Origin: an uncultured Fibrobacteraceae bacterium | GTDB lineage: Bacteria; Krumholzibacteriota; Krumholzibacteriia; LZORAL124-64-63 | Assembly (NCBI GenBank): GCA_964420395.1 | Contig: CAYQTJ010000004.1 | Coordinates: forward strand, 2,506-66,505 | Length of the DNA: 64,000 bases | Direction of reading: 5' to 3' | Part shown: one piece after another, positions 5,888-59,815 of the stretch | Layout of the letters: every line of letters begins with the position of its first letter | Numbering within the stretch: the stretch's first letter is position 1 | Position numbers and translations under genes: made by a program | Notes under the pieces: model-generated | The model's input: only the letters and a program-made list of their open reading frames with translations | What the model was told of the DNA's origin: nothing | Databases searched by the model: none

Positions 5888-6673
5888 ATGACTGGTGATC
5901 GTCGTCCGGCGGCGCGGCGCCTGGCCCCCTGGCTGGGGTTCTGCCTGCCGGTCGCCTGCGCGCTGCTGCTCGGTTCGTGCAGCAGCCAGCGCATCGGGCT
6001 GCCCTATCCCGACGAGCAGGCGGGGATGGCCTTCGCCGACTCCCTGCCGCCGCCGCGCGTGTTCCTCGGCGCCATCGAGGACCGGCGTCCCCCGGAGCAG
6101 CACGAGGGACGAGGCGGGTTCTTCGGCATCACCTACCCGGCCGACGACACCTGGCAGCGCCCGGTCGACCAGCTGTACCGCGCCGCGCTGGCGCAGGACC
6201 TGACCCAGACCCGCATCGTGGAGCTGACCCCGCTCCCGCGGCAGGCCGCCTTCACGCTGGAGGCCGAGGTCTTCTCGCTCGCCTGCCGCCTGAAGCGCAC
6301 GCCGGGGGCCTACCTGCTCCCGATGAGCGCCGGGATGCTCGGCGGCATGGTCTTCGGCGAGACGGCGTCGGACCGCGTCCGCACCGGGATCGTGGCGGGC
6401 ATCGCGCTGATGATCGCCGCGCCGATGCCGACCGCGCATCGGGCCGAGTGCGAGGTGCGCCTGACGCTGCGCGACGCGGCGGGGGAAGTGGTCTGGCAGC
6501 AGACCTGCCTGGGCGAGGTCGACGGCCACATCTACGTGCCGGCGACCTCCCGCGAGGACAAGAAGCAGGCCGAGAAGACCCTGCCCCGGGCGGTCAAGCG
6601 GTGCAACGCCTGCCTGCTGGGGCAGTTGCGGCAGTTCCTGGCCGGCGCGCAGGCGGCCCCGGCCGGCGGCTGA
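5888..6673 (+). CDS. Hypothetical lipoprotein
   Basis: Signal peptide with lipobox …ACALLLGS-C-SSQ. No family recognised. Confidence 0.55.
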   Translation: MTGDRRPAARRLAPWLGFCLPVACALLLGSCSSQRIGLPYPDEQAGMAFADSLPPPRVFLGAIEDRRPPEQHEGRGGFFGITYPADDTWQRPVDQLYRAALAQDLTQTRIVELTPLPRQAAFTLEAEVFSLACRLKRTPGAYLLPMSAGMLGGMVFGETASDRVRTGIVAGIALMIAAPMPTAHRAECEVRLTLRDAAGEVVWQQTCLGEVDGHIYVPATSREDKKQAEKTLPRAVKRCNACLLGQLRQFLAGAQAAPAGG

Positions 6674-49162: not shown

Positions 49163-50101
49163 GTGCCTTTGCTCCGGCTGGACTACCTGCAGTTGGACGT
49201 CTTCACCGACCGCCCGTTCGGGGGGAGTCGGCTCACGCTCTTTCCGCGCGGCGAGGGGCTCTCCGGCCGCCTGATGCAGGCCATCGCCGGCGAGGTGGGC
49301 TGCGGCGAGACCGCCTTCGTGCTGCCCAGCCGCCAGCGTCGGCAGAACTGGTGGGCGCTGCGCATCTTCACGCCCCGCGCGGAGATCCCGTTCGCCGGCC
49401 ATTCGGTGCTCGGCGCCGCCTGCGCGCTCGACCACCTCGGCCTGCTCGCGCACAGTGGCGATCGCACGCTGTGCGAGTGGGAACTCGAGGCGGGGTATTT
49501 TCCGGTGGTGATCCGGGACGAGGGGGGCAGTCCCCTCTACAGCCTCGTGCACAACCCGCCGGTGTTCCTCGGCCGCTACTACCACCGGGATCGCGTGGCG
49601 CGTGCGCTTGGCCTGCCGGTGGAAGAGCTGGCGATCACCGGACTGCCGTGCGAGGTGATCTCGACCGGCCTGCCGATCCACGTCGTGCCGGTCGGCTCGC
49701 TGGCTGCCGTGCAGAGCATCGTGCCGCGCGCGGCCGAGACCGAGGCGATCGCCGCCGATCTCGGCTTCGGCGACCTGTTCGTGTTCACGTGCGAGACGGA
49801 AGCCGAAGACGCCGACGTGCATTGCCGGATGTTCGCGCCCCACTTCGGCATTCCCGAGGATCCGGCGAGCGGCTCGGCCATGGGGGCGCTGGCGGCGTAC
49901 CTGATCAAGCACCGCCTCGTGGCCATGGAGCCGCACCTGCGGCTCGTCGGCGAGCAGGGGCTGGAGATGGGCCGTCCCAGCCGCCTGATCGTCGAGGCCG
50001 AGATCGAGAACGGACAGGCCAGCCTGATCCAGGTGGGGGGGCGCTGCCTCGTCGTGGGCGAGGGGCGGCTCACCCTCGCGGGTGACCCCTTCGCGAGTTG
50101 A
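49163..50101 (+). CDS. PhzF-family isomerase-like protein
   Basis: …LQLDVFTDRPFGGSRLTLF…ETAFV…, …MFAPHFGIPEDPASGSAMGALAAYL. Start set to GTG 49163 after GGGAGGG. Confidence 0.8.
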   Translation: MPLLRLDYLQLDVFTDRPFGGSRLTLFPRGEGLSGRLMQAIAGEVGCGETAFVLPSRQRRQNWWALRIFTPRAEIPFAGHSVLGAACALDHLGLLAHSGDRTLCEWELEAGYFPVVIRDEGGSPLYSLVHNPPVFLGRYYHRDRVARALGLPVEELAITGLPCEVISTGLPIHVVPVGSLAAVQSIVPRAAETEAIAADLGFGDLFVFTCETEAEDADVHCRMFAPHFGIPEDPASGSAMGALAAYLIKHRLVAMEPHLRLVGEQGLEMGRPSRLIVEAEIENGQASLIQVGGRCLVVGEGRLTLAGDPFAS

Positions 50102-50138
50102 ATCCTGCGACTGCCGGAGCGAAAGGAGCCGACGCCCG

Positions 50139-51797
50139 ATGACCACGCCCGCCGGACTGAGCCCCGAGATGTGCGACATGGTGGTGCAGACCCTGCGCCA
50201 GGTGGTGAAGCGCGACCTTCCCGACGAACGGGTGCTGGCGCTCGATCACGACGAGACCTTCCCGGAGGAGTTCATCCGAACCCTGCTTTCGCCCGAGGTG
50301 GGACTGCACCTGCTGTTCCTCCCCGAAGCCGTGGGGGGGCTCGGCGGCGGCGCGCGCGACATCTGCCGCGTCTCGGAAGAGATGGCGGGCATCGACCTGG
50401 GGGTGGCCACCGCGTTCCTGGCCATCTGCCTCGGAACCGATCCGATCATCGTGGGGGGCACGCCGGAGCAGAAGACGCGCTGGTTGTCGCGCATCGCGGG
50501 CGAGGGGCTGATCGTCGCCTACGGCGTGACCGAGCCGGCGGCCGGCAGCAACGTGGCGGCGCTCCAGACGCGGGCCGAGCCGGTGCGCGATCCGGCCGGC
50601 ACGATCACGCACTACCGCCTCAACGGCGCGAAGCAGTTCATCACCAATGGCGGCGTGGCGCAGCTGTACACGATCCTGGCGCAGGCCCCCGCGGGGCCGA
50701 CATTCTTCGTGGTGGAGCGCGACACGCCCGGGGTGTCGGCCGGCAGGCAGGAGGACAAGCACGGCATCCGGGCGTCCAACACGACCAGCGTCCTGCTCGA
50801 GGACGTGCTGGTGCCGGCGGACCAGTTGATCGGTCTCGAGGAGGGGCGGGGCCTGAAGCAGGCCAACGCGGTCTTCGGCTACACGCGGCTCATGGTGGGC
50901 GCGTTCGGGCTCGGCGCGGGCCAGATGGCGCTCGACCGGGCGCTCGACTACGCCCGCTCGCGCGTCCAGTTCGGCTCGCCGCTGATCGAGAAGCAGGGTT
51001 ACACGCACAAGCTGCTGGTGCCGAACTGGGTCGACCTGGCGGCCGGCCGGGCGTACGTGCGGGAGATCGCGCTGCGCATCGACTCGGGGGAGCACGACCT
51101 GCAGGTGGAGGGCTCGATCGCCAAGCTCTGGTGCACCGAGGCGGGCAACCGCGCCGCGGACGCCGCGCTGCAGGCCTTCGGCGGCTATGGCTACACGCGC
51201 GAGTACATGGTCGAGAAGATCCGGCGCGACGTGCGCATCACGAGCATCTACGAGGGAACCAGCGAGATCCAGCAGAGCATCATCGGACTGTTCCGCTGGA
51301 AGGAGACCGTCCGCTCGAAGGGGGCCTTCTACGGCGACGCCGCCGCCTCGCTCGACGCGCTGCACGAGCGGCATCCGCAGGTGGGGGCCCGGCTCGCGGC
51401 GGTGGCGCTGCGCACGCTGGGGGAGGCGATCCTCCATTGCCACGCGGCGGGGTTGACCAGGCAGCAGATCGTCCAGTTCACCCTCGCCGACATGGCCACG
51501 GCGGCGGAGGTGGCGGGGGCGTTCTGCCGCCTGACCGCCGCCGAGGCCGACGCCGGCGCGGCCGACGCGACGACGCGGGCCGCGATGAGCCGGCAGTGCG
51601 CGCGGCAGGCGCTGGCGGCGGTGCGGCGCGGAGCCCTGGAGTGCGCGTTGGGCCAGGTCGATCCGGCGGACGAGGCGCAACTGGCACAGGCGGCGCCGGC
51701 GGTGGCGACCCTGGCGCCGGTGGAGGCCTGGCGGACCCTGGCGGGCGGGTGGCGGGACCACGATCTGATCGCGCAGCACCTGCGGGGGCTCGCCTAG
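50139..51797 (+). CDS. Acyl-CoA dehydrogenase (long form with an extra C-terminal helical domain)
   Basis: …AYGVTEPAAGSNVAALQT…, …QFITNGG…, and …GGYGYTREYMVEKIRRDVRITSIYEGTSEIQ. Start at ATG 50139 after AAAGGAG. Confidence 0.85.
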   Translation: MTTPAGLSPEMCDMVVQTLRQVVKRDLPDERVLALDHDETFPEEFIRTLLSPEVGLHLLFLPEAVGGLGGGARDICRVSEEMAGIDLGVATAFLAICLGTDPIIVGGTPEQKTRWLSRIAGEGLIVAYGVTEPAAGSNVAALQTRAEPVRDPAGTITHYRLNGAKQFITNGGVAQLYTILAQAPAGPTFFVVERDTPGVSAGRQEDKHGIRASNTTSVLLEDVLVPADQLIGLEEGRGLKQANAVFGYTRLMVGAFGLGAGQMALDRALDYARSRVQFGSPLIEKQGYTHKLLVPNWVDLAAGRAYVREIALRIDSGEHDLQVEGSIAKLWCTEAGNRAADAALQAFGGYGYTREYMVEKIRRDVRITSIYEGTSEIQQSIIGLFRWKETVRSKGAFYGDAAASLDALHERHPQVGARLAAVALRTLGEAILHCHAAGLTRQQIVQFTLADMATAAEVAGAFCRLTAAEADAGAADATTRAAMSRQCARQALAAVRRGALECALGQVDPADEAQLAQAAPAVATLAPVEAWRTLAGGWRDHDLIAQHLRGLA

Positions 51798-51902
51798 GTC
51801 CGGATGGCGCCGCCGCGCCGCTCAAGCCGGGGGCGGGAGGCGCGATGTACAGACGCTGGCGGTCGCGGAGCGCCTCGCCGCCGCGGAGCCGGCAGGAGTG
51901 GC

Positions 51903-52341
51903 ATGGATGAGCCGGACGAAATGTCATGGACGACCCACCCGTTCCGCCGCCACCCCGGGCGCGGCCTGGCCGGTCTCGGCGTGAGCCTCGCCGCGCTGGC
52001 GCTGGTGCAGGCGTGGGCGCGGACGGCCGCGCTCACCGGGCTGGGGGCGCTGCTGCTGGCGGTGTCGCTCTGGCCGTTCTACTTCCCCACGCGCTGGCGG
52101 GTCGACGGGACCGGCGTCGCGGCCGACTACGGGCTGTGGCGACGGCGATGGCCCTGGGAGCGTTTCCGGGCCTGCGTCCCGCTGCCGGGCGCGGTGGTGC
52201 TGACCCCCCTTCGCCCGGCCGCACCCGCTGGAGCGCTGGCGCGCGGTCGTGGTGCCGTGCCCGGACGCGGGGGAGCGGCTGCTGGCGACGCTGTCCCGGC
52301 GTCTGCCCTGCCGGGACGGGAAGGGGGGGGGTGCCGCGTGA
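51903..52341 (+). CDS. Small membrane protein (two N-terminal helices plus a short PH-like soluble domain). The reading frame appears to shift +1 in a C6 run at 52204-52209 (assembly indel, pseudogene or recoding)
   Basis: Frame 0 from ATG 51903 is convincing up to about 52203. From 52204 the +1 frame (PFARPHPLERWRAVVVPCPDAGERLLATLSRRL…) has 43/45 codons ending in G/C versus 30/45 in frame 0. It also ends in a TGA that overlaps the next GTG start. Confidence 0.45.
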
Positions 52342-52703
52342 ACGCGCCCCGGTCCCAGCCGCCGGCCCTGCCCGGCGCGGCGGCGCTCGCCGAAGCGACC
52401 GGCCCTCGGCCCGCCACACTCGAGGCCGCGGACGACCTCCTGCTGGCCGAACTGGCCCTCGCGGTGCAGCGGCGCGGCCTGGCCACCCCCGCGGTGCTTT
52501 GGCTGGAGAGCCTGCGGCCGCTCTCGTTCGTCGGCGCGCAGGCGATGCACGCGCTGACCCCCTTCGTCCAACTGCTGACCAGGGGTGCCCGGTTCGAACG
52601 GCTCGCCGAGATCTTCGAGGATCGCGGGCACCTGGAGCGCTTCCTGCGCCTGATCGAGACCGCGGCGGCGGCGCCGGCCGCAAGGACGGAGGGCCCGCAG
52701 TGA
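52338..52703 (+). CDS. Hypothetical small protein (about 121 aa)
   Basis: GTG 52338 in a GTGA overlap. …LATPAVLWLESLRPLSFVGAQAMHALTPFVQLL… High GC3. It is the C-terminal part of track ORF 51804..52703. Confidence 0.45.
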   Translation: MNAPRSQPPALPGAAALAEATGPRPATLEAADDLLLAELALAVQRRGLATPAVLWLESLRPLSFVGAQAMHALTPFVQLLTRGARFERLAEIFEDRGHLERFLRLIETAAAAPAARTEGPQ

Positions 52704-54553
52704 GCGCCCCCGCCGGCGGTCCGCACCCGGCCGCGCCGCCCCCCGCCGCCTGCGACGTCATTCTGGTCACCGACTGCGGATCGACCTCGACGAAGGCGAT
52801 CCTCGTCGAGCGCCGCGACGGACGGTTCCGCCTGACCGCCCGGGGCGAGGCGCCGACGACCGTGGAGGCCCCCTGGGAGGACGTCACGCGCGGCGTGCGC
52901 AACGCGATCGCCGAAGTGTCCGAACTGTCCGGCCGGCGGCTCCTCGACCCCGCGACCGGCGCCCTGCTCCGCCCGGCGCGCGACGGCGAGGGGGTGGACC
53001 TCTTCCTCAGCACCAGCAGCGCCGGCGGCGGGCTGCAGATGCTGGTGGCGGGAGTCGTGCGCAACATGACCGCCGAGAGCGCCGAGCGGGCCGCGCTGGG
53101 CGCCGGGGCCATCGTGATGGACGTCATCGCGTTCAACGATCCGCGCCGGCCGCACGAGCAGATCGAGCGGATCCGGCAGCTTCGTCCCGACATGATCCTG
53201 CTCAGCGGCGCCGTCGACGGGGGCAGCACCAGCCACGTGGTCAAGCTGGCGGAGCTGGTCGCCGCGGCCGAGCCGCGGCCGCGCCTCGGCGGGGCGGGCG
53301 AGCTGCCGGTCGTCTACGCGGGCAACGTCGACGCGCGGGCCGCGGTCGCCGCCGCCTTCGGCGGCCGGGTGGACCTCGTGATGGTGGACAACCTGCGGCC
53401 GGTCCTGGAGCGGGAGAACCTCGGTCCGGCGCGGGAGAAGATCCACGACGTCTTCCTGGAGCACGTCATGGCGCGGGCGCCCGGCTACCTCGCCCTGATG
53501 GCCATGTGCGACCATCCGATCATGCCTACGCCCGCGGCCGTCGGCATGATGGTGCAGTCGATCTCGGCCGAGGGGGGGCGCGACGTGCTGGCGGTCGACA
53601 TCGGCGGCGCCACGACCGATGTCTTCTCCGTCTTCGACGGGCAGTTCAACCGCACGGTCAGCGCGAACCTGGGGATGAGCTACAGCGTGGCCAACGTGCT
53701 GCGCAGCGCGGGGCTGGAGAACGTGAAGCGGTGGGTGCCGGCGCCGATCGAGGAGCGCGACCTGCGGGATCGCCTGCTCAACAAGATGATCCGCCCCACG
53801 ACGCTCCCGCAGCTGATGAGCGACCTGCTCGTGGAGCAGGCGGTGGCCCGGGAGGCGCTGCGCCTCGCCTTCGCGCAGCACCGGGCTTTCGCCACGCGAC
53901 GCCTGATGGGGGTCCACCGGCGGCGCACCATCGGCGACGCCTTCCGGCAGGACGACGAGGACCAGAGCCTCGTCAACCTGCTGGACCTCGACCTGCTCAT
54001 CGGATCGGGCGGGGTGCTCTCGCACGCGCCGCGCCGCGCGCAGGCGGCGCTGATGCTGGTGGACGCCTTCCTGCCCGAGGGGCTGACCAGGCTGGCCGTG
54101 GATTCGGTGTTCATGCTGCCGCAACTCGGGGTGCTCAACGGCGTCCACCCGGTCGCGGCGCACGAGGTATTGGCGAGCGACTGCCTGATCCCGCTGGGCT
54201 CCTGCCTGGCGCCCGTCGGTCCGGCGCTCCGGCCCGGCAGCCCGCTGGCGCGCGTGACGCTGGCGCTGGAGAGCGGCGCCACGCTGGAGGCGCGGGTGCT
54301 GGCGGGGGAAGTCGAACTGCTGCCGCTGGCGCGCGGCACGCGGGCGCGGCTGCGGGTGGAGCCGGGCCGCGGCTTCGACGTCGGGCGCGGCCCCGGCACC
54401 CCGCTCGAGACCGATGTCGCGGGGGGCGAGGTGGGCCTGATCCTGGACGGCCGCGGCCGGCCCCTGGCCTGGCCGGCGCGCGAGAGCGAGCGCCTCGATT
54501 GCCTGCGGCGGTGGCATGCCGCGCTCGACATCTACCCCGAGGGAGCCGCGTGA
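52700..54553 (+). CDS. GlmL/MutL-like protein (ASKHA-fold ATPase of the glutamate-mutase accessory protein family)
   Basis: VILVTDCGSTSTKAILV (phosphate-1 motif), LAVDIGGATTDVFSV (phosphate-2 motif), …SSAGGGLQM…, …LLSGAVDGGS…. GTGA overlap at 52700. Confidence 0.7.
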   Translation: MSAPAGGPHPAAPPPAACDVILVTDCGSTSTKAILVERRDGRFRLTARGEAPTTVEAPWEDVTRGVRNAIAEVSELSGRRLLDPATGALLRPARDGEGVDLFLSTSSAGGGLQMLVAGVVRNMTAESAERAALGAGAIVMDVIAFNDPRRPHEQIERIRQLRPDMILLSGAVDGGSTSHVVKLAELVAAAEPRPRLGGAGELPVVYAGNVDARAAVAAAFGGRVDLVMVDNLRPVLERENLGPAREKIHDVFLEHVMARAPGYLALMAMCDHPIMPTPAAVGMMVQSISAEGGRDVLAVDIGGATTDVFSVFDGQFNRTVSANLGMSYSVANVLRSAGLENVKRWVPAPIEERDLRDRLLNKMIRPTTLPQLMSDLLVEQAVAREALRLAFAQHRAFATRRLMGVHRRRTIGDAFRQDDEDQSLVNLLDLDLLIGSGGVLSHAPRRAQAALMLVDAFLPEGLTRLAVDSVFMLPQLGVLNGVHPVAAHEVLASDCLIPLGSCLAPVGPALRPGSPLARVTLALESGATLEARVLAGEVELLPLARGTRARLRVEPGRGFDVGRGPGTPLETDVAGGEVGLILDGRGRPLAWPARESERLDCLRRWHAALDIYPEGAA

Positions 54554-55665
54554 GCCACGCCTATTATCCCGGCCTGCGGGCCAGCGAGTGGGTCGCCCTG
54601 CGGCGGGAGCGCTTCCTGCCGGTCGAGGGCGAGGTCCTGGTGCGCGAAGGGCAGACGGTCGCGTCGGACACCGTGGTGGCGCGCACGATCCTGCGGGGGA
54701 CGCTCACGCCGGTGAACGTGGCGGCCAGTCTGGGGGTCGAGCCGGGCGAGGTCAACGAGGCGCTCCTGAAGCGCGCCGGCGAGGCGGTGTGCCAGGGCGA
54801 GCTGCTCGCCCGCACGAAGGGGGTCTTCGGGCTGTTGCGGGCCGAGTGCCGGGCGCCGGTCACCGGCACGATCGCCACGGCCTCGGTCGCGACCGGTCAG
54901 GTGATGATCGAGGGGCCGCCGCTGCCGGTGGAGGTCAAGGCGCACCTGGCCGGCACGGTGGTGTCGGTGCGGCCGGGGCGCGGGGCGACGATCGCCGCCG
55001 CGGGCACCTGGATCCAGGGGATCTTCGGCATCGGCGGCGAGGCGTGGGGGGCGATCGTCCTGGGGGTCTCGGCGCCGAGCGAACGGCTGACGGAGAAGGA
55101 GATCACCCCCGAGCTGCAGGGCAAGATCGTCGTGGGGGGCGCGCTGGTCACGCGTGAGGCGCTGGCGCGCGCCGCGCAACTCGGGATCGGCGCGATCGTC
55201 ACCGGCGGCGTGCACGCGCTCGATCTGGGCGAATTCATGGGTTGCGAGATCGGCGCCGGCGTGACCGGCGCCGAGCAGGTCGGCCTGACCCTGATCGTGA
55301 CCGAGGGTTTCGGCGAGATCGCCATGGCGCGCCGCACCTTCCGGCTGCTCGGCCAGCGCGAGGGCTTCCTGGCGAGCGTGAGCGGAGCCACCCAGATCCG
55401 GTCCGGGGTGCTGCGCCCCGAGATCATCGTGCCGGCGGCGACGGGGGAGCGCGGCGCGGCGGACGCCGTGGCGGCCGACGGCATCGCCGTCGGCACCTCC
55501 GTGCGGCTGGTGCGCGCGCCGCACTTCGGACAGCTCGGGACGGTGGTGGCCCTGCCGCCCGACCCGTGCGCGGTGGCGAGCGGCGCGGTCGTGCGGATCC
55601 TCGAGGCCGAACTGGAATCGGGCGTGCGGGTCACCGTGCCGCGCAGCAACGTCGAACTGTTCTGA
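54550..55665 (+). CDS. Hypothetical soluble protein (barrel-sandwich/hybrid-motif-like N-terminal part, KOW-like C-terminal tail); no family recognised
   Basis: GTGA overlap at 54550. …VEGEVLVREGQTVASDTVVART…, …APVTGTIATASVATGQVMIEG…, …GTSVRLVRAPHFGQLGTVVAL…. High GC3. Confidence 0.55.
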   Translation: MSHAYYPGLRASEWVALRRERFLPVEGEVLVREGQTVASDTVVARTILRGTLTPVNVAASLGVEPGEVNEALLKRAGEAVCQGELLARTKGVFGLLRAECRAPVTGTIATASVATGQVMIEGPPLPVEVKAHLAGTVVSVRPGRGATIAAAGTWIQGIFGIGGEAWGAIVLGVSAPSERLTEKEITPELQGKIVVGGALVTREALARAAQLGIGAIVTGGVHALDLGEFMGCEIGAGVTGAEQVGLTLIVTEGFGEIAMARRTFRLLGQREGFLASVSGATQIRSGVLRPEIIVPAATGERGAADAVAADGIAVGTSVRLVRAPHFGQLGTVVALPPDPCAVASGAVVRILEAELESGVRVTVPRSNVELF

Positions 55666-55686
55666 GCCGCTCCGCGAGGAGGCCGC

Positions 55687-56505
55687 GTGGACGCCTGGTT
55701 TGCGCCGGAAAGCTGGAACCTGGCGCTGTTCGCGCTGGTCGTGGGCGGGACGATCATGCTTTCCATCCGCCGGGCCGAACGGGGCCGGCCGCCCCGCGTG
55801 CGCCGCCTGCCGGGCGTGGACGCGATCGCGGAGGCGGTGGGCCGGGCGGTGGAACTGGGGCGGCCGGTGCTGTTCGTGCCCGGCTCGCGCGACCTCGACA
55901 ACGTGCAGACGGTGGCCGGTCTGGCGCTGCTGGGCGAGGTGGCCGGACTGGCCGCCCGGCTGGAGTGCCAGCTCCAGGTTCCGACCAGCCGGAGCCTCGT
56001 GCTGGCGGCCGCCCGCGACGCCTGCCGCACCGCCTTCATCTCCGCCGGCCGCGCGGAGGCCTGGCGTGACGAGACCGTCAGCTACGTCTCGGACGACCAG
56101 CTCGGGCTGGCGGCGCGCGTGGACGGGATGATCGCCCGCGACCGCCCCGCGGCCTGCCTGCTGTTCGGCTTCTTCGGCGCGGAATCGCTGCTGATGGCCG
56201 AGGCGGGCGCGCAGGCGGGGGCGATCCAGATCGCCGGCACCGCGGAGAAGAGCCAGTTGCCGCTGTTCGTGGCGGCGTGCGATTACACCCTCATCGGCGA
56301 GGAGCTCTTCGCCGCCAGCGCCTGCCTGACGGGTGAGCCGGCGCTGCTCGGCACGCTGCGCGGACAGGATCTGGGCAAGGCGTTCGCGGCGGCCTGCCTG
56401 GTCGCCGGCGCTCTGCTCGCCACGGCCGCCACGCTCACGGACTGGGCGCCGCTGGTGGCGCTGCGCGCCGCCTTCCTGCGCCTCTTCGAGACGGGGGTCG
56501 GCTGA
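55687..56505 (+). CDS. Hypothetical membrane protein (N- and C-terminal helices flanking a soluble domain)
   Basis: GTG after GAGGAGG. …WNLALFALVVGGTIMLSI… High GC3. Confidence 0.55.
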   Translation: MDAWFAPESWNLALFALVVGGTIMLSIRRAERGRPPRVRRLPGVDAIAEAVGRAVELGRPVLFVPGSRDLDNVQTVAGLALLGEVAGLAARLECQLQVPTSRSLVLAAARDACRTAFISAGRAEAWRDETVSYVSDDQLGLAARVDGMIARDRPAACLLFGFFGAESLLMAEAGAQAGAIQIAGTAEKSQLPLFVAACDYTLIGEELFAASACLTGEPALLGTLRGQDLGKAFAAACLVAGALLATAATLTDWAPLVALRAAFLRLFETGVG

Positions 56506-56506
56506 C

Positions 56507-57202
56507 ATGCGCCGTCGCCTCCCGCGGATCGTGGTCGGGATCGTCGGCAGCCTGCTGATCCTGAAGGCGTTCGTGCCGCGGCCGGGCGCGGCCGGTCCCA
56601 CCGAGTGGCAGGCGTTCTTCGCCTACGTCGACGAGAACTTCTCCGTCTGGTTCAACATCCTTGCCGTGTTCGCCTTCGGCCTGGGGGCCGCGAGCCTCCT
56701 GAGGGTCCACGGCGGGCGGGTGCTGCGGCGGCAGCGCGACTGGCCCTATTCCCTGGCGGGGCTGACCGCCTTCGGGGTGGTGCTGATCGCCGGGCTGGCG
56801 CGCGTCGGCGGGGATCCCTCGGACGCCGGCTCGACCGTGCACTGGATCTTCCGGGCCGTGATCAGCCCGTTGCAGGCGAGCATCTTCGCCCTGCTCGCCT
56901 TCTACATCGCCTCCGCCTCCTACCGCGCGTTCCGCGTCCGGTCGCGCGAGGCGGCGGCCCTGCTGGTGGCGGCGCTCATCATCCTGGCGGGGCGCACGCC
57001 GTTCGGCCACTCGCTGACCGACTGGCTGCCGGCGTCGCTGTCGTTCCTGCGCCTGGAGAACGTGGCGCTGTGGGTGGTGCAGGTCCCCAACACGGCCGGC
57101 CAGCGGGCGATCACCATCGGCATCGCGCTCGGGACCGTGGCGATGTCGCTGCGACTGCTGCTGGGGATCGAGCGCGGCCTGCTCGGGCGGGGGGACTCGT
57201 GA
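56507..57202 (+). CDS. Hypothetical polytopic membrane protein
   Basis: ATG 1 nt after the upstream stop. 4-5 hydrophobic helices (…VWFNILAVFAFGLGAASLL…, …LAGLTAFGVVLIAGLA…). Confidence 0.55.
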   Translation: MRRRLPRIVVGIVGSLLILKAFVPRPGAAGPTEWQAFFAYVDENFSVWFNILAVFAFGLGAASLLRVHGGRVLRRQRDWPYSLAGLTAFGVVLIAGLARVGGDPSDAGSTVHWIFRAVISPLQASIFALLAFYIASASYRAFRVRSREAAALLVAALIILAGRTPFGHSLTDWLPASLSFLRLENVALWVVQVPNTAGQRAITIGIALGTVAMSLRLLLGIERGLLGRGDS

Positions 57203-58083
57203 GCGGGGGGGGCGAACGGCCGGTGCGGGGATCGGCGCTCTCGTCGCTCGACCGGCGCTGGGTCCATGCGGCGCTGGCCGGGGCGATCCTGCTCTCGATC
57301 GTGGCGCGGATCCGCTTTCCCGACACCCCGTCGCCGCTCGTGCAGGGGCTGTACGACCGGGTGGAGAGCCTGCCGGCGGGAGCGCCGATCGTGCTCTCGC
57401 TCGACTATTCACCGAATTCCCGTCCGGAGCTGGAGCCGATGGCGCGCGCGCTGGCGCGCCACGCGCTGCTGCGCGGCCACCGCCTGATCCTGCTCTCGGT
57501 CTGGGACACCGGCAACGCGATGATCGAGGAGCTGCGGACCGACGTGCTGGCCGTCGAGTTCCCCGACCGGCGGGAGGGGGCCGACTGGGTGGCGCTGGGC
57601 TACAAGGCCGGGAACGAGATCCTGATCAACGCCATCCGGGACAACTTCGGCTCCATGTACCGCACCGACCTGCGCGACAGCCTGCTCGCGTCGCTGCCGG
57701 CCCTCGCGGGGGTGCGCGGCCTCTCGGACTGCGGGCTGATCGTGTCGCTGTCCGGCGGGTCGCCCGGCCTGAAGGAGTGGATCCTGTTCGCCGGCGACGT
57801 GACCGGCGTGCCGGTGGCCGGGGGCTGCACCGGGGTCGGGACGCCGGAGTTCCTGCCCTATTTCCCGCGGCAGTTGATCGGTCTGCTGGGCGGACTGAAG
57901 GGGGCCGCGGAGTACGAGGCGGCCCTCGAGCGCGGGCATCCCGACTTCCCCCAGCGCACCATGGCCGCCACGGACGGCATGGGACCGCAGTCGGTCGCGC
58001 ACACGGTCATCATCGTCTTCATCCTCCTGGGCAACGCCGGCTACCTGATCGAGCGGCGGCGCCGGCGGCGGGGGTCGCCGTGA
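57199..58083 (+). CDS. Hypothetical bitopic membrane protein (helix, roughly 230-aa domain, helix, poly-Arg tail)
   Basis: GTGA overlap. …WVHAALAGAILLSIVARI… and …VAHTVIIVFILLGNAGYLIERRRRRRG. Confidence 0.55.
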   Translation: MSGGGERPVRGSALSSLDRRWVHAALAGAILLSIVARIRFPDTPSPLVQGLYDRVESLPAGAPIVLSLDYSPNSRPELEPMARALARHALLRGHRLILLSVWDTGNAMIEELRTDVLAVEFPDRREGADWVALGYKAGNEILINAIRDNFGSMYRTDLRDSLLASLPALAGVRGLSDCGLIVSLSGGSPGLKEWILFAGDVTGVPVAGGCTGVGTPEFLPYFPRQLIGLLGGLKGAAEYEAALERGHPDFPQRTMAATDGMGPQSVAHTVIIVFILLGNAGYLIERRRRRRGSP

Positions 58084-58772
58084 GCGGCGGGCTGCACCCG
58101 AGCGGGAGCCTGGAGGTGTGGGTCGGCGCCTGCCTGACGCTGATGGTCTTCAGCTTCCTGTGGCGGGACAATCCCTTCTACAAGTTCGCCGAGCACGTGC
58201 TCGTCGGCGCGTCCGCCGCCTACGTGATGGTGATCAACTTCTGGAGCACCCTCTGGCCGAACGCGATCGTCAAGCTCTGGCCGGCCGCGGAGCGGGTGGT
58301 CAATCCGGAGGCGGTACCGGGGTCGCCCGAGCCGGTGGTGCTGGTGCCGGTCGCGCTGGGCCTGCTGATGCTCTGCCGCCTGCACCCGCGGACCGCCGCC
58401 TGGAGCCGCTGGCCGACCGCCTTCGCGATCGGCGTCAGCGCCGGCACCAACCTGCTGCGCTACCTGCAATCGGATTTCCTCCTGCAACTGCGCGCGGCGG
58501 CGGCGCCGAGCCTGGTGGTCCTGCACGGGGGCCGGCTGCAGCTGGGGGAGAGCCTGTCCAACATCGTGCTGCTGGTCGGTACGCTGTGCGGCCTCGCCTA
58601 CTTCACGTACACCCGCGAGCACCGCGGCCCGCTGGGCCGGATGGCCCGCTTCGGCATCGGTTTCATGATGGTGACTTTCGGAACCTCCTTCGGCTACACC
58701 GTGATGGCGCGTATATCCTTGCTGGTAAGCAGGTTGCACTTTCTCGTCGGGAACTGGCTCGGCCTGATCTGA
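58080..58772 (+). CDS. Hypothetical polytopic membrane protein
   Basis: GTGA overlap. 5-6 helices (…VWVGACLTLMVFSFLW…, …IVLLVGTLCGLAYFTY…). Confidence 0.55.
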   Translation: MSGGLHPSGSLEVWVGACLTLMVFSFLWRDNPFYKFAEHVLVGASAAYVMVINFWSTLWPNAIVKLWPAAERVVNPEAVPGSPEPVVLVPVALGLLMLCRLHPRTAAWSRWPTAFAIGVSAGTNLLRYLQSDFLLQLRAAAAPSLVVLHGGRLQLGESLSNIVLLVGTLCGLAYFTYTREHRGPLGRMARFGIGFMMVTFGTSFGYTVMARISLLVSRLHFLVGNWLGLI

Positions 58773-58779
58773 ACCCCGC

Positions 58780-58802
58780 CGCCGGCCGGGCGCCGGCCGG
58801 CG
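58780..58802 (+). terminator. GC-rich hairpin (10-bp stem CGCCGGCCGG/CCGGCCGGCG, 3-nt loop) ending the eight-gene operon; no U-tract
   Basis: Read directly, 8 nt after the stop at 58772. Confidence 0.3.
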
Positions 58803-58891
58803 CTACAGGTCGCGCGCCGGGCGGCCGAAGATAAAGTTGACGGCCCAGGGTCCGTATCCATAGACTGGCGCCCCGCGTCAGAGAGGGCTTC

Positions 58892-59815
58892 ATGCTGGAT
58901 TCCGGCACGAATATCGAGCGGCAGATTCAATTCTATCAGCGCAAGTACGAGCTGAATCCGCACTCGCGCGCCTTCGCGCCGCTGGCCGACCTCTACCGCA
59001 AGGCAGGACGGCTCGAGGAGGCGCTGGAGGTGCTGGAGGCGGGACTCGCCGAGCATCCCCAGTACGTTTCCGCGCTGGTGATCATGGCCCGTTGCCACGT
59101 CGACGCGGGACGCGCGGCCGAGTCCGGCGAGGCGTTCACGCGCGTGCTGGCGCTCGACCCGGACAATCTCGTCGCGCTCAAGAGCCTCGCCGAGATGGCC
59201 CTGGCCGGCGGTGACGACGCCCGCGGCGCCTCGTTGCTCGAGCGCGTCGTCTTCCTCGACCCCACGGACGAACCCGCGGCGGAGCGTCTCGAAACGTTGC
59301 GCGGCGGGGCGGTCGCCTCGCCGGCCGGCCCCGAGGAGACCGGGCAGGCCGCCGAGCCTCCCGAGGCGCCGGAGCACGCCGCCGTGGCGCTCCCCCCGCC
59401 CGCCGCCGAGGCGGAGCATGCGCCGCAGACCGCCGTCGCGACAGCGCCGGAGGCGGTGGCGGAAGCCGCCGCGGCCGCGCCGACGCCGGACGGCGAAGGG
59501 GTGTCGGACCGGGAGGCCGTCTCTCCCGTGCAGGAGCGCCAGTCGTTCGCCACGCGGACCCTGGCGGAGATCTACCTGGCCCAGGGCTATCGGGAGAAGG
59601 CCCTGACGGTCCTGCGCGAGATCCTGGCGCGCCATCCGGACCGCGAGGACGTCGCGGCGAAGGTCGCGGAAATCGAGAGCCAGCCGCCCGCCGCCGTTCC
59701 CGCCGGCCCCTCCGCGCCGCCGTCGGCCGCTTCGCCGCCCCCACCGGCGACCGAGAACCGGCTGCACTTCGAGGCGTGGCTCGGCCGCGTGGCCAAGCCG
59801 GAAGAGGGCCCTTGA
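58892..59815 (+). CDS. Tetratricopeptide-repeat protein with an Ala/Pro-rich linker
   Basis: …LADLYRKAGRLEEALEVLEAGLAEHPQYVSALVIMARCHVDAGR…AFTRVLALDPDN… and a second TPR-like unit …LAEIYLAQGYREKALTVLREILARHPD. Confidence 0.7.
   Translation: MLDSGTNIERQIQFYQRKYELNPHSRAFAPLADLYRKAGRLEEALEVLEAGLAEHPQYVSALVIMARCHVDAGRAAESGEAFTRVLALDPDNLVALKSLAEMALAGGDDARGASLLERVVFLDPTDEPAAERLETLRGGAVASPAGPEETGQAAEPPEAPEHAAVALPPPAAEAEHAPQTAVATAPEAVAEAAAAAPTPDGEGVSDREAVSPVQERQSFATRTLAEIYLAQGYREKALTVLREILARHPDREDVAAKVAEIESQPPAAVPAGPSAPPSAASPPPPATENRLHFEAWLGRVAKPEEGP

What the first reader, a model, noticed from the sequence alone, without database searches (positions are those of the whole stretch)
51903..58772. 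Unrecognised eight-gene, translationally coupled operon built around a GlmL/MutL-like ASKHA ATPase and several membrane proteins
Eight consecutive + strand genes are chained by stop/start overlaps or minimal gaps. There are GTGA overlaps at 52338, 52700, 54550, 57199 and 58080, a 1-nt gap at 56506, and a 21-nt gap with GAGGAGG at 55666-55686. The chain ends in a strong GC hairpin at 58780-58802. Only one product is recognisable: a 617-aa protein with the two ASKHA phosphate-binding motifs (DCGSTSTK, DIGGATTD) and overall resemblance to GlmL/MutL, the glutamate-mutase accessory protein family. No mutase subunits (GlmS/GlmE) or B12-related genes are nearby. Its partners are a 2-helix PH-like membrane protein, a 121-aa protein, a 371-aa soluble protein with barrel-sandwich-like and KOW-like segments, and four further membrane proteins (two polytopic, two with helices at both ends flanking a soluble domain). 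The tight coupling suggests a stoichiometric, membrane-associated ATP-driven complex whose function I cannot assign. This is my best candidate for an undescribed system in the window.
Basis: partly seen in the sequence, partly recalled or inferred. Interest (0 to 1): 0.75.

Follow-up and report, generated by a model that had tools for sequence, protein, structure and literature searches.

The report
Conserved uncharacterised membrane complex with ASKHA ATPase
This operon is a real gene system of unknown function, found across many bacterial phyla, that pairs a four-protein membrane complex with an actin/Hsp70-fold ATPase that databases mislabel as a "glutamate mutase" helper; no library, solved structure or paper I could search describes it.

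Summary
The eight-gene + strand operon is real. One correction: gene 1 is frameshifted in the window by an extra C at 52204-52209, so the GTGA overlap at 52338 exists only after repair.

The block is conserved and modular:
- **Core (g5-g8):** collinear in about 68 of 80 related loci across Zixibacteria, Planctomycetota, Ignavibacteria, Acidobacteriota, Gemmatimonadota and others. g5 is DUF6754. g6, g7 and g8 match no Pfam family.
- **ATPase pair (g3-g4):** a 617-aa GlmL-like ASKHA ATPase and a 371-aa three-domain protein. It lies beside the core in about 45% of loci, whichever module seeds the search.
- **Small pair (g1-g2):** recurs upstream.

g3 matches Pfam MutL but fails both NCBIfam GlmL cutoffs. 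No mutase gene or riboswitch accompanies it. It is about 62% identical across phyla. No product has a solved relative by sequence, and the g4 and g5 models match known structures only at domain level. Natural g7-g8 fusions exist. Zixibacteria carry two or three cores per ATPase pair.

My best reading, inferred from architecture alone, is an envelope transport or remodelling machine whose membrane core is driven by a shareable ASKHA ATPase module. I rate it categorically new, function unproven.

The parts
51903..52341 (+). g1: about 145-aa protein with two N-terminal TM helices and a beta-rich C-terminal part. Frameshifted in the window (frame 0 to frame 1).
   Evidence: L002 and L003 have it intact, ending in a GTGA overlap with g2. 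Homologues occur in 31 of 160 related loci. No Pfam hit.
52204..52209 (+). C6 homopolymer carrying one extra C relative to L001-L003 (C5). This is the site of the g1 frameshift.
   Evidence: DNA alignment. GC3 switches frame here.
52338..52703 (+). g2: 121-aa protein with no TM helix predicted. Conserved motif ...PA..FLES.KPL.F.GSQAMHF..P...
   Evidence: Found directly upstream of g3 in 55 of 160 loci. No Pfam hit.
52700..54553 (+). g3: 617-aa ASKHA ATPase. A GlmL/MutL-fold core (residues 21-494) plus a C-terminal beta-rich extension of about 125 aa.
   Evidence: Pfam MutL E=1.2e-120. NCBIfam GlmL 221 bits against a cutoff of 475; TIGR01319 154 against 204. About 62% identical across phyla, with more than 200 invariant columns. 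Weak TOBE-like hit in the extension.
54550..55665 (+). g4: 371-aa soluble three-domain protein: barrel-sandwich hybrid, swivelling beta/beta/alpha domain and KOW/SH3-like domain.
55676..55682 (+). GAGGAGG Shine-Dalgarno-like sequence four nt upstream of the g5 GTG start.
   Evidence: Read directly from the sequence.
55687..56505 (+). g5: 272-aa DUF6754 protein. N-out TM helix, cytoplasmic Rossmann-like alpha/beta domain with invariant AACDYTLIGEE, then a C-terminal TM helix.
56507..57202 (+). g6: 231-aa six-TM protein, N-in and C-in. Conserved motifs ASASYRAFR and PN.AGQRAI.IGIALG.
   Evidence: No Pfam family and no PDB relative.
57199..58083 (+). g7: 294-aa bitopic protein. N-in TM helix, extracytoplasmic domain of about 220 aa, C-terminal TM helix and a poly-Arg tail.
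   Evidence: No Pfam family and no PDB relative. Naturally fused to g8 in P0363, P0374 and P0400.
58080..58772 (+). g8: 230-aa protein with five or six TM helices. Invariant DNPFYK.AEH motif.
   Evidence: No Pfam family and no PDB relative. The family has 1,871 representatives at 50% identity clustering.
58781..58801 (+). Perfect 9-bp GC palindrome (GCCGGCCGG-gcg-CCGGCCGGC) after the last stop codon. Possible transcript end, not a canonical terminator.
   Evidence: z=0.17 against shuffles. One search finds no terminator-like site.

Best explanation
**What the data show**
The operon encodes a widely conserved, modular, chromosomal system made of three gene modules.
- **Module C (g5-g8), the invariant core.** An inner-membrane complex of two polytopic subunits (g6, g8), one subunit exposing a highly conserved Rossmann-like domain to the cytoplasm (g5, DUF6754), and one exposing an alpha/beta-rich domain of about 220 aa outside the membrane (g7).
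- **Module B (g3-g4).** A very strongly conserved Hsp70/reactivase-type ASKHA ATPase with intact nucleotide motifs, plus an obligate partner built from three adaptor-type domains.
- **Module A (g1-g2).** A small membrane protein and a small soluble protein.

**What I infer**
g3-g4 is a shareable, ATP-driven energising or conformational-switch module. It docks on the cytoplasmic domain of g5. By analogy, GlmL, EutA and DdrA-type reactivases use ATP to act on a Rossmann-type client subunit. Nucleotide-dependent movements would then pass to the g6/g8 membrane subunits and the extracytoplasmic g7 domain. The likely purpose is to move or remodel an envelope component.

The layout parallels binding-protein-dependent transporters:

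| Transporter part | Counterpart here |
|---|---|
| Outer receptor domain | g7 |
| Two membrane subunits | g6, g8 |
| Cytoplasmic coupling domain | g5 |
| Detachable ATPase | g3-g4 |

The fold of the ATPase is completely different from an ABC ATPase.

**Confidence**
I put about 0.9 on this being a real conserved system with B functionally linked to C. I put about 0.3 on the ATP-driven transport or remodelling mechanism. The substrate is unknown.
For: **Conservation**
- DUF6754 has relatives in at least 488 species genomes.
- g5-g8 are collinear in about 68 of 80 loci and compact in 52 of 80, with median gaps of 12, 9 and 80 nt.
- g3-g4 lie within 10 kb of the core in 37-39 of 80 loci, either co-directional or divergent. 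Nineteen loci from several phyla have the compact six-gene form.
- Seeding on g4 instead, g3 is upstream in 39 of 51 loci and the core downstream in 13 of 30 loci with enough room.

**Physical association**
- Natural g7-g8 fusions exist.
- Five stop/start overlaps or minimal gaps occur in the window.

**A shared ATPase module**
- Zixibacteria have two or three tandem cores per single g3-g4 pair.
- Cores without an adjacent ATPase are common.

**ATPase competence**
- The phosphate-1, phosphate-2 and adenosine motifs are invariant, and mean column identity is 76%.

**Architecture**
- The g5 domain is cytoplasmic and Rossmann-like.
- The g7 domain is extracytoplasmic.
- Many g5 homologues have an extracytoplasmic FN3 domain, and many g8 homologues carry variable outer extensions.
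- g4 combines a barrel-sandwich, a swivelling domain and a KOW-like domain.

**Envelope hint**
- g3-x-g4 is followed by tolQ-tolR-tolA-tolB in 10 loci of one lineage.
Against: - No experiment and no homology to any transporter or enzyme supports a specific activity.
- No known transporter uses an ASKHA ATPase, so the analogy is purely architectural.
- I could not predict g3-g5 or g4-g5 contacts, because no multimer tool or coordinates were available.
- More than half of cores have no g3-g4 within 10 kb, and I could not test genome-wide co-occurrence.
- The Tol linkage is confined to one lineage.
- g8 topology is ambiguous.
Confidence: 0.35

Rival explanations
1. Maintenance or activation of a membrane-bound enzyme. 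The core, and especially the g5 domain with its invariant Cys-Asp and many invariant polar residues, is an enzyme acting on a lipid or envelope precursor. g3-g4 is its ATP-dependent activase or reactivase, as GlmL, EutA and DdrAB are for their client enzymes. Nothing is translocated.
For: - g3 belongs to the reactivase-type branch of ASKHA by Pfam and NCBIfam similarity.
- g5 conservation looks enzyme-like: 67% mean column identity and an invariant AACDY.LIGEE motif.
- The swivelling domain in g4 is a fold used for shuttling between sites in PEP-utilising enzymes. From my own knowledge, it is also present in the DdrA reactivase subunit.
Against: - The g5 fold shows no specific match to any enzyme family.
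- This reading does not explain why two polytopic subunits and an extracytoplasmic domain are invariably co-encoded and even fused.
- The His expected in a phospho-carrier swivel domain is not conserved in g4 (consensus).
Confidence: 0.2
2. Cytoskeletal or scaffolding role. g3 is a polymerising actin-fold protein anchored to the membrane through the core, comparable to MreB-MreC-MreD or FtsA or PilM-PilN-PilO. It would organise envelope growth, division or outer-membrane constriction.
For: - g3 conservation is extreme for an accessory enzyme: about 62% identity over 610 aa across phyla.
- It partners with bitopic and polytopic membrane proteins.
- It shares an operon with tolQRAB in one lineage.
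- A published analysis of the actin superfamily groups the glutamate mutase and EutA families with enzymes. It also stresses that polymerisation arose repeatedly (PMC5597319).
Against: - No member of the GlmL/EutA/DdrA branch is known to polymerise; PMC5597319 lists them among non-polymerising enzymes.
- Multiple paralogous cores per ATPase fit a client or energiser relation better than a scaffold.
- The obligate g4 partner has no counterpart in actin-like systems.
Confidence: 0.15
3. Two or three independent systems that are merely frequent neighbours. The g5-g8 core works on its own, and g3-g4 (with or without g1-g2) serves a different, soluble client.
For: - The core lacks g3-g4 within 10 kb in about 55% of loci.
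- g4 alone or g3-g4 alone occur in other contexts.
- Some neighbourhoods place g4 beside unrelated genes such as a PorV-like OMP and AccA.
Against: - Adjacency is about 45% in both directions, across at least four phyla and in both co-directional and divergent arrangements.
- No other gene family recurs next to either module in 160 loci.
- The window shows translational coupling straight across the module boundaries.
Confidence: 0.1
4. g3 is a genuine GlmL/MutL. That would make it the accessory reactivase of a coenzyme-B12-dependent glutamate, ornithine or lysine mutase, as current database names imply.
For: - It matches Pfam MutL strongly, and NCBIfam GlmL and Or-4 at E=1e-65 and 1e-59.
- Public records name homologues 'glutamate mutase L' or 'methylaspartate mutase'.
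- There is a weak B12-binding-like hit at residues 141-209.
Against: - It scores below all three NCBIfam cutoffs.
- It has an extra C-terminal domain of about 125 aa.
- No mutase subunit or any other recurrent family appears in 160 neighbourhoods or in Pfam-annotated contexts.
- No cobalamin riboswitch is present in the window or in seven related loci.
- Its constant partners are g4 and membrane proteins.
Confidence: 0.04

Closest known systems
GlmL/MutL, the glutamate mutase accessory protein (Pfam PF13941, TIGR01319, NF040745), and the related EutA and DdrA/PduG reactivases
   Same: - g3 has the same ASKHA fold family over residues 21-494.
- The phosphate-1, phosphate-2 and adenosine motifs are intact.
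- It probably undergoes an ATP-driven conformational cycle acting on a partner protein.
   Different: - It falls below the GlmL, Or-4 and TIGR01319 cutoffs.
- It has an extra C-terminal beta domain.
- No B12 enzyme, mutase genes or B12 riboswitch are nearby.
- Its constant partner is g4, and it is frequently linked to a membrane complex.
- It is far more conserved across phyla than I would expect for an accessory factor.
Binding-protein-dependent ABC importers and ECF transporters that share one ATPase module among several permeases
   Same: - The overall layout matches: an outer receptor-like domain, two polytopic subunits, a cytoplasmic coupling domain and a detachable ATPase module.
- Several paralogous membrane modules occur per ATPase module, and the ATPase genes are often unlinked.
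   Different: - There is no sequence or fold homology, and no product has an ABC or Walker-type NBD.
- The ATPase has the actin/Hsp70 fold.
- Transport has not been shown.
ASKHA proteins docked on envelope machines: PilM-PilN-PilO, GspL, FtsA, MreB-MreC-MreD
   Same: A cytoplasmic actin-fold protein is encoded together with bitopic and polytopic inner-membrane proteins that reach into the periplasm.
   Different: - g3 belongs to a different ASKHA branch.
- None of the membrane partners is homologous to PilN/O, MreC/D or GspM.
- g4 has no counterpart in those systems.
NqrA / RnfC N-terminal barrel-sandwich domain, RraA and PEP-utiliser swivelling domains, and KOW domains (for g4)
   Different: - No known protein combines them: full-length TM-score is at most 0.15.
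- g4 has no cofactor-binding Cys motifs.
- It has no conserved phospho-His.
- It has no biotin or lipoyl attachment motif.

Membership tests
GlmL (methylaspartate mutase accessory protein, NCBIfam NF040745 equivalog) | Score at or above the curated equivalog cutoff (475 bits) | tested here: not met
   221 bits.
GlmL family (TIGR01319 subfamily) and Or-4 (NF040744) | Score at or above the curated cutoffs (204.05 and 600 bits) | tested here: not met
   154.1 and 200.9 bits.
Pfam MutL (PF13941) | Full-length domain match above the gathering score | tested here: met
   403.7 bits against 27. Residues 21-494 cover profile positions 1-449 of 450.
GlmL / B12-mutase reactivase system | Encoded with the mutase subunits (glmS/glmE or equivalents) or other B12-related genes | tested here: not met
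   No recurrent extra family in 160 neighbourhoods. None in the Pfam-annotated contexts that contain a MutL gene. One unrelated B12-binding radical SAM gene lies near a core-only locus. No cobalamin riboswitch.
GlmL / B12-mutase reactivase system | ATP-dependent reactivation of a cobalamin enzyme | not testable with these tools
   Needs biochemistry.
ASKHA (actin/Hsp70/sugar-kinase) ATPase superfamily | Phosphate-1 (DxGxT), phosphate-2 (DxGGxT) and adenosine (GxGG) motifs | tested here: met
   TDCGSTSTK, DIGGATTD and GSGGVL are invariant in 36 diverse homologues.
DUF6754 (PF20539) | Full-length domain match above the gathering score | tested here: met
   g5 scores 315.9 bits against 27.
ABC or other known primary transporters | An ABC or P-loop nucleotide-binding subunit, or a recognised permease family | tested here: not met
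   No such Pfam or NCBIfam hit for any product, and none recurring across members of the g6, g7 and g8 alignments.
Biotinyl/lipoyl carrier domain (for g4) | Significant Biotin_lipoyl match and a canonical modified-Lys motif (A/V-M-K-M or similar) | tested here: not met
   The window g4 has no Pfam hit. Only sporadic precomputed flags appear in homologues. The hairpin reads ARTKG, whereas the AccB encoded in the same window has EAMKVM (translation).
NqrA / RnfC | Full architecture (barrel-sandwich, Rossmann, SLBB, with or without Fe-S) and association with Nqr/Rnf membrane subunits | tested here: not met
   No bPH hit for the repaired g1. The layout of two TM helices plus a beta-rich segment is compatible with it.
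Known anti-phage defence systems | A match to any PADLOC model | tested here: not met
   No hits for any product.
Intrinsic terminator (for the 58781-58801 hairpin) | A GC-rich stem followed by a T tract, more stable than background | tested here: not met
   No T tract, z=0.17, and the scan finds no terminator-like site.

The most novel reading that the evidence does not exclude
The system is the first example of a membrane translocation or remodelling machine energised by an actin/Hsp70-fold (ASKHA) ATPase instead of a P-loop ATPase or ion gradient. That would make it a new class of primary-active envelope machinery, ancestral to and widespread in the FCB, PVC, Acidobacteriota and Gemmatimonadota lineages. 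One ATPase pair would serve several paralogous membrane cores.
Probability: 0.2. Interest if true: 0.9.

Novelty: categorically new. Interest (0 to 1): 0.72.

Why it matters
**Scale of the unknown**
- Five of the eight products belong to large families with no Pfam model: at least 6,344 g4 homologues, and 1,871 g8 representatives at 50% identity clustering.
- A sixth product is a DUF.
- The seventh is systematically misnamed in public genomes as a B12-mutase accessory protein, which seeds wrong metabolic inferences in MAG studies.

**Biological weight**
The system is chromosomal. It sits among housekeeping genes and is very strongly conserved, with the ATPase about 62% identical across phyla. 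It is present in at least 488 species from phyla that dominate soils and sediments. That points to a basic cell-envelope function missing from the proteobacterial and firmicute model organisms.

**If the inferred coupling is right**
It would add a new energising principle for membrane machines. The question is directly testable, since cultured planctomycetes, Caldithrix, Ignavibacteria and Gemmatimonadetes are likely to carry the system.

Tried and rejected
- **HMM libraries.** PADLOC gave nothing. NCBIfam gave only sub-threshold GlmL hits. Multi-member Pfam scans of g6, g7 and g8 found no consistent family.
- **Solved structures by sequence.** Sequence and profile searches of every product from g3 to g8 found no relatives.
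- **Internal paralogy.** hhalign rejected g5 against g7 and g6 against g8 (all probabilities at most 8%).
- **Fold searches.** g4 gave only domain-level hits. g5 gave a generic Rossmann-like fold. The afdb50 library was unavailable.
- **Structure prediction limits.** g6, g7, g8 and g3 were not modelled.
- **Extra conserved partners.** All-vs-all ORF clustering of 2 x 80 loci found none. Minor clusters were alternative-frame artefacts or lineage synteny: PPDK, PorV-like OMP plus AccA, SPFH/NfeD.
- **Riboswitches.** None in the window or in seven related loci.
- **Source contig.** Looking up the window's own contig for gene calls gave only short contigs or nothing.
- **Literature.** DUF6754, PF13941, TIGR01319, 'glutamate mutase L' and ASKHA plus phylum names gave nothing relevant. 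'GlmL' matches OCR noise.
- **Phospho-carrier idea for g4.** Rejected, because the His at the window's position 222 is Asp in the family consensus.
- **Hairpin as terminator.** Rejected.
Full report
**Observation**

The window is about 74% GC, so mechanical ORF lists are full of shadow frames. Third-position GC periodicity and direct reading of the junctions confirm a chain of + strand genes:

| Gene | Coordinates | Length |
|---|---|---|
| g2 | 52338-52703 | 121 aa |
| g3 | 52700-54553 | 617 aa |
| g4 | 54550-55665 | 371 aa |
| g5 | 55687-56505 | 272 aa |
| g6 | 56507-57202 | 231 aa |
| g7 | 57199-58083 | 294 aa |
| g8 | 58080-58772 | 230 aa |

GTGA overlaps at 52700, 54550, 57199 and 58080 are real. 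So is the 1-nt gap at 56506, and GAGGAGG sits four nt before the g5 start.

Gene 1 is the exception. ATG 51903 and GTG 52338 are in the same frame, and 51903-52703 reads through as one 266-aa ORF. GC3 switches from frame 0 to frame 1 around 52150-52200. The orthologues in L002 and L003 are single clean frames (…GAVVLTPFARPHPLERW…AA*) that end in the GTGA overlap. The window has C6 at 52204-52209 where they have C5. L001 has a different one-base indel nearby, and another related contig splits its MutL gene in two. This is the signature of homopolymer errors in long-read assemblies. So g1 is a real gene of about 145 aa that is frameshifted in the window as given.

The hairpin at 58781-58801 is a perfect 9-bp GC palindrome. 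It is not more stable than shuffled sequence (z=0.17) and lacks a T tract.

**What the products are**

- **Library hits.** Pfam recognises only g3 (MutL PF13941, E=1.2e-120) and g5 (DUF6754, E=2e-94). NCBIfam places g3 nearest GlmL (221 bits), the GlmL-related ornithine-degradation protein (201 bits) and TIGR01319 (154 bits). All three are well below their cutoffs of 475, 600 and 204. PADLOC finds nothing.
- **g1, g2 and the g3 extension.** The repaired g1 and g2 have no hits. The 125 residues of g3 beyond the MutL domain give only a weak TOBE-like signal.
- **g6, g7, g8.** Scanning 29-31 diverse members of each family individually gave no consistent Pfam family. Profile searches against all PDB sequences found nothing for g5-g8. 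They also found nothing for g3, even with a 36-sequence profile.
- **Paralogy.** Profile-profile comparison shows no paralogy among g3-g8.

**Conservation**

- **Seeding with g5.** This found relatives in at least 488 species-representative genomes. The best 80 are labelled Zixibacteria (about 19), Planctomycetota (about 17), Ignavibacteria (about 8), Acidobacteriota, Eisenbacteria, Gemmatimonadota, Cloacimonadota, Caldithrix and others.
- **The core.** tblastn of all window proteins shows g5-g6-g7-g8 collinear in about 68 of 80 loci. The arrangement is compact in 52, with median intergenic gaps of 12, 9 and 80 nt.
- **The ATPase pair.** g3 and g4 are always adjacent to each other (median gap 8 nt). 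They lie within 10 kb of the core in 37-39 of 80 loci, either co-directional or divergent. Nineteen loci from Planctomycetota, Acidobacteriota, Gemmatimonadota and the window's lineage have the compact six-gene arrangement.
- **Seeding with g4.** In metagenome contigs, g3 is upstream in 39 of 51 loci and the full core downstream in 13 of 30 loci with enough room.
- **The small pair.** g2 recurs in 55 and g1 in 31 of the 160 loci.
- **Other partners.** All-vs-all clustering of every ORF in both sets found no other widely recurrent partner.
- **Dispersed components.** Annotated neighbourhoods show the four-gene core alone, g3-g4 alone and g4 alone.
- **Context.** The surroundings are varied housekeeping regions, once directly after the ribosomal-protein/secY/rpoA cluster. 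In the window the flanks are ACPS, PhzF-like, acyl-CoA dehydrogenase, dehydroquinase II, EF-P, AccB and PilT.

So this is a chromosomal, modular system, not a mobile island or a chance juxtaposition.

**Further structure of the system**

- **Multiple cores.** In Zixibacteria the whole four-gene core is tandemly duplicated or triplicated, while g3-g4 is single.
- **Fusions.** Three cluster representatives are natural g7-g8 fusions.
- **Family sizes.** The g8 family has 1,871 representatives at 50% identity clustering. The g4 family has more than 6,344 hits, about 50% identical across phyla, all named 'hypothetical'.
- **g3 conservation.** The g3 subfamily is about 610 aa long and about 62% identical across phyla. 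Mean column identity is 76%, with more than 200 invariant positions including TDCGSTTTKA, DIGGATTD and GSGGVL. It carries contradictory public names.
- **FN3 on g5.** Many DUF6754 proteins carry an N-terminal FN3 domain.
- **Tol linkage.** In one Zixibacteria-like lineage the operon reads g3, a 250-aa secreted protein, g4, tolQ, tolR, tolA, tolB. Pfam confirms MotA_ExbB, ExbD, TonB_C and PD40/TolB_N. It is transcribed divergently from the cores, in 4 + 6 loci.

**Folds and topology**

- **Topology.** Family-wide positive-inside analysis gives these results:
  - The g5 domain is in the cytoplasm, with N- and C-termini outside.
  - g6 is a clean six-TM N-in/C-in protein.
  - The 220-aa domain of g7 is outside.
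  - g8 has five or six helices of uncertain orientation.

**Interpretation**

Three things are shown:
1. It is a conserved multi-subunit membrane core.
2. It has a tightly paired cytoplasmic ATPase module genetically linked to it in several phyla.
3. Nothing supports a B12-mutase role:
   - the GlmL cutoffs are failed;
   - g3 has an extra domain;
   - no mutase genes accompany it;
   - no riboswitch is present.

The rest is inferred. g3-g4 would be a shareable ATP-driven module acting on the cytoplasmic Rossmann-like domain of g5, much as reactivase-type ASKHA proteins act on Rossmann-type client subunits (from my own knowledge of DdrAB). It would drive the g6/g8/g7 assembly to move or remodel something in the envelope. 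The several-cores-per-ATPase pattern and the frequent unlinking of the ATPase genes resemble ABC or ECF systems that share one ATPase. The outer domains (g7, FN3 on g5, extensions on g8) and the Tol neighbourhood point to the envelope.

The rivals are an enzyme plus activase, an actin-like scaffold, independent neighbours, and a true GlmL. They are listed with their tests.

**Comparison and novelty**

The closest known entity for any part is GlmL/MutL for g3. Membership in GlmL proper was tested and not met. The whole assembly has no described counterpart in Pfam, NCBIfam, PADLOC, the PDB or the searchable literature.

I rate it categorically new as a system, with function unproven. A conserved operon of unknown function is not rare in itself. 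This one stands out for its breadth, the extreme conservation of its ATPase, the misannotation it corrects, and the possibility of an ASKHA-powered membrane machine.

Noticed in passing
window 52204-52209; L001 about 6480-6500; L170 7067-8771: One-base homopolymer indels break conserved genes: g1 in the window, g1 at a different site in L001, and the MutL gene split into 100 + 442 aa in L170. This suggests long-read assembly errors, so other genes in the window may be affected as well.
   Followed up: partly
L023 6013-17237; L018 9506-16863; L026, L034, L074, L088: The whole four-gene core (DUF6754 plus three partners) is tandemly duplicated or triplicated in Zixibacteria, against a single g3-g4 pair.
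   Followed up: partly
L023 1-5630 (- strand); L018 1-7418; also L014, L056, L089, L090, L097, L105, L106, L126: In one Zixibacteria-like lineage g3 and g4 are separated by a secreted protein of about 250 aa with no Pfam hit. They are followed in the same direction by tolQ, tolR, tolA/tonB-like and tolB genes.
   Followed up: partly
P0363, P0374, P0400 (cluster representatives, 579-598 aa): Natural fusions of g7 (N-terminal) and g8 (C-terminal). Many other g8 homologues carry extracytoplasmic N-terminal extensions of 100-220 aa or large mid-loop insertions.
   Followed up: partly
g5 homologues P0141, P0147, P0185, P0196, P0204, P0205, P0212, P0222, P0231 and others: Most DUF6754 proteins outside the window's lineage are 400-450 aa long, with an N-terminal fibronectin type III domain that the window's 272-aa version lacks.
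   Followed up: no
g3 homologues P0258, P0264, P0270, P0295, P0322, P0323, P0325: Public records name this subfamily inconsistently: 'glutamate mutase L', 'methylaspartate mutase', 'GlmL-related ornithine degradation protein' or 'TIGR01319 family'. None of these names is supported by gene context.
   Followed up: yes
window 58837-58866 and 58892-59815: The only sigma-70-like promoter match in 51600-59000 lies just downstream of the operon. It precedes a 307-aa TPR protein with an Ala/Pro-rich linker, which is syntenic only in the closest relatives L001-L003.
   Followed up: partly
L099, L107, L121, L122, L132, L144, L151, L159: In one lineage g4 stands alone, with no g3 and no core within reach. 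It is followed by a putative outer-membrane beta-barrel of about 305 aa (PorV-like by eye) and an AccA-like carboxyltransferase.
   Followed up: no
L074 9176-10530: An NfeD-like and SPFH/stomatin-like gene pair (identified by eye, not checked against Pfam) is inserted between two tandem copies of the core.
   Followed up: no
L088 1-9236: In a Zixibacteria chromosome the core begins directly after the ribosomal-protein/secY/adk/map/infA/rpoA cluster, a strongly housekeeping context.
   Followed up: no
window 50082-51797: The upstream acyl-CoA dehydrogenase is 571 aa. It has about 170 residues beyond the three ACAD domains at its C-terminus that match no Pfam family.
   Followed up: no
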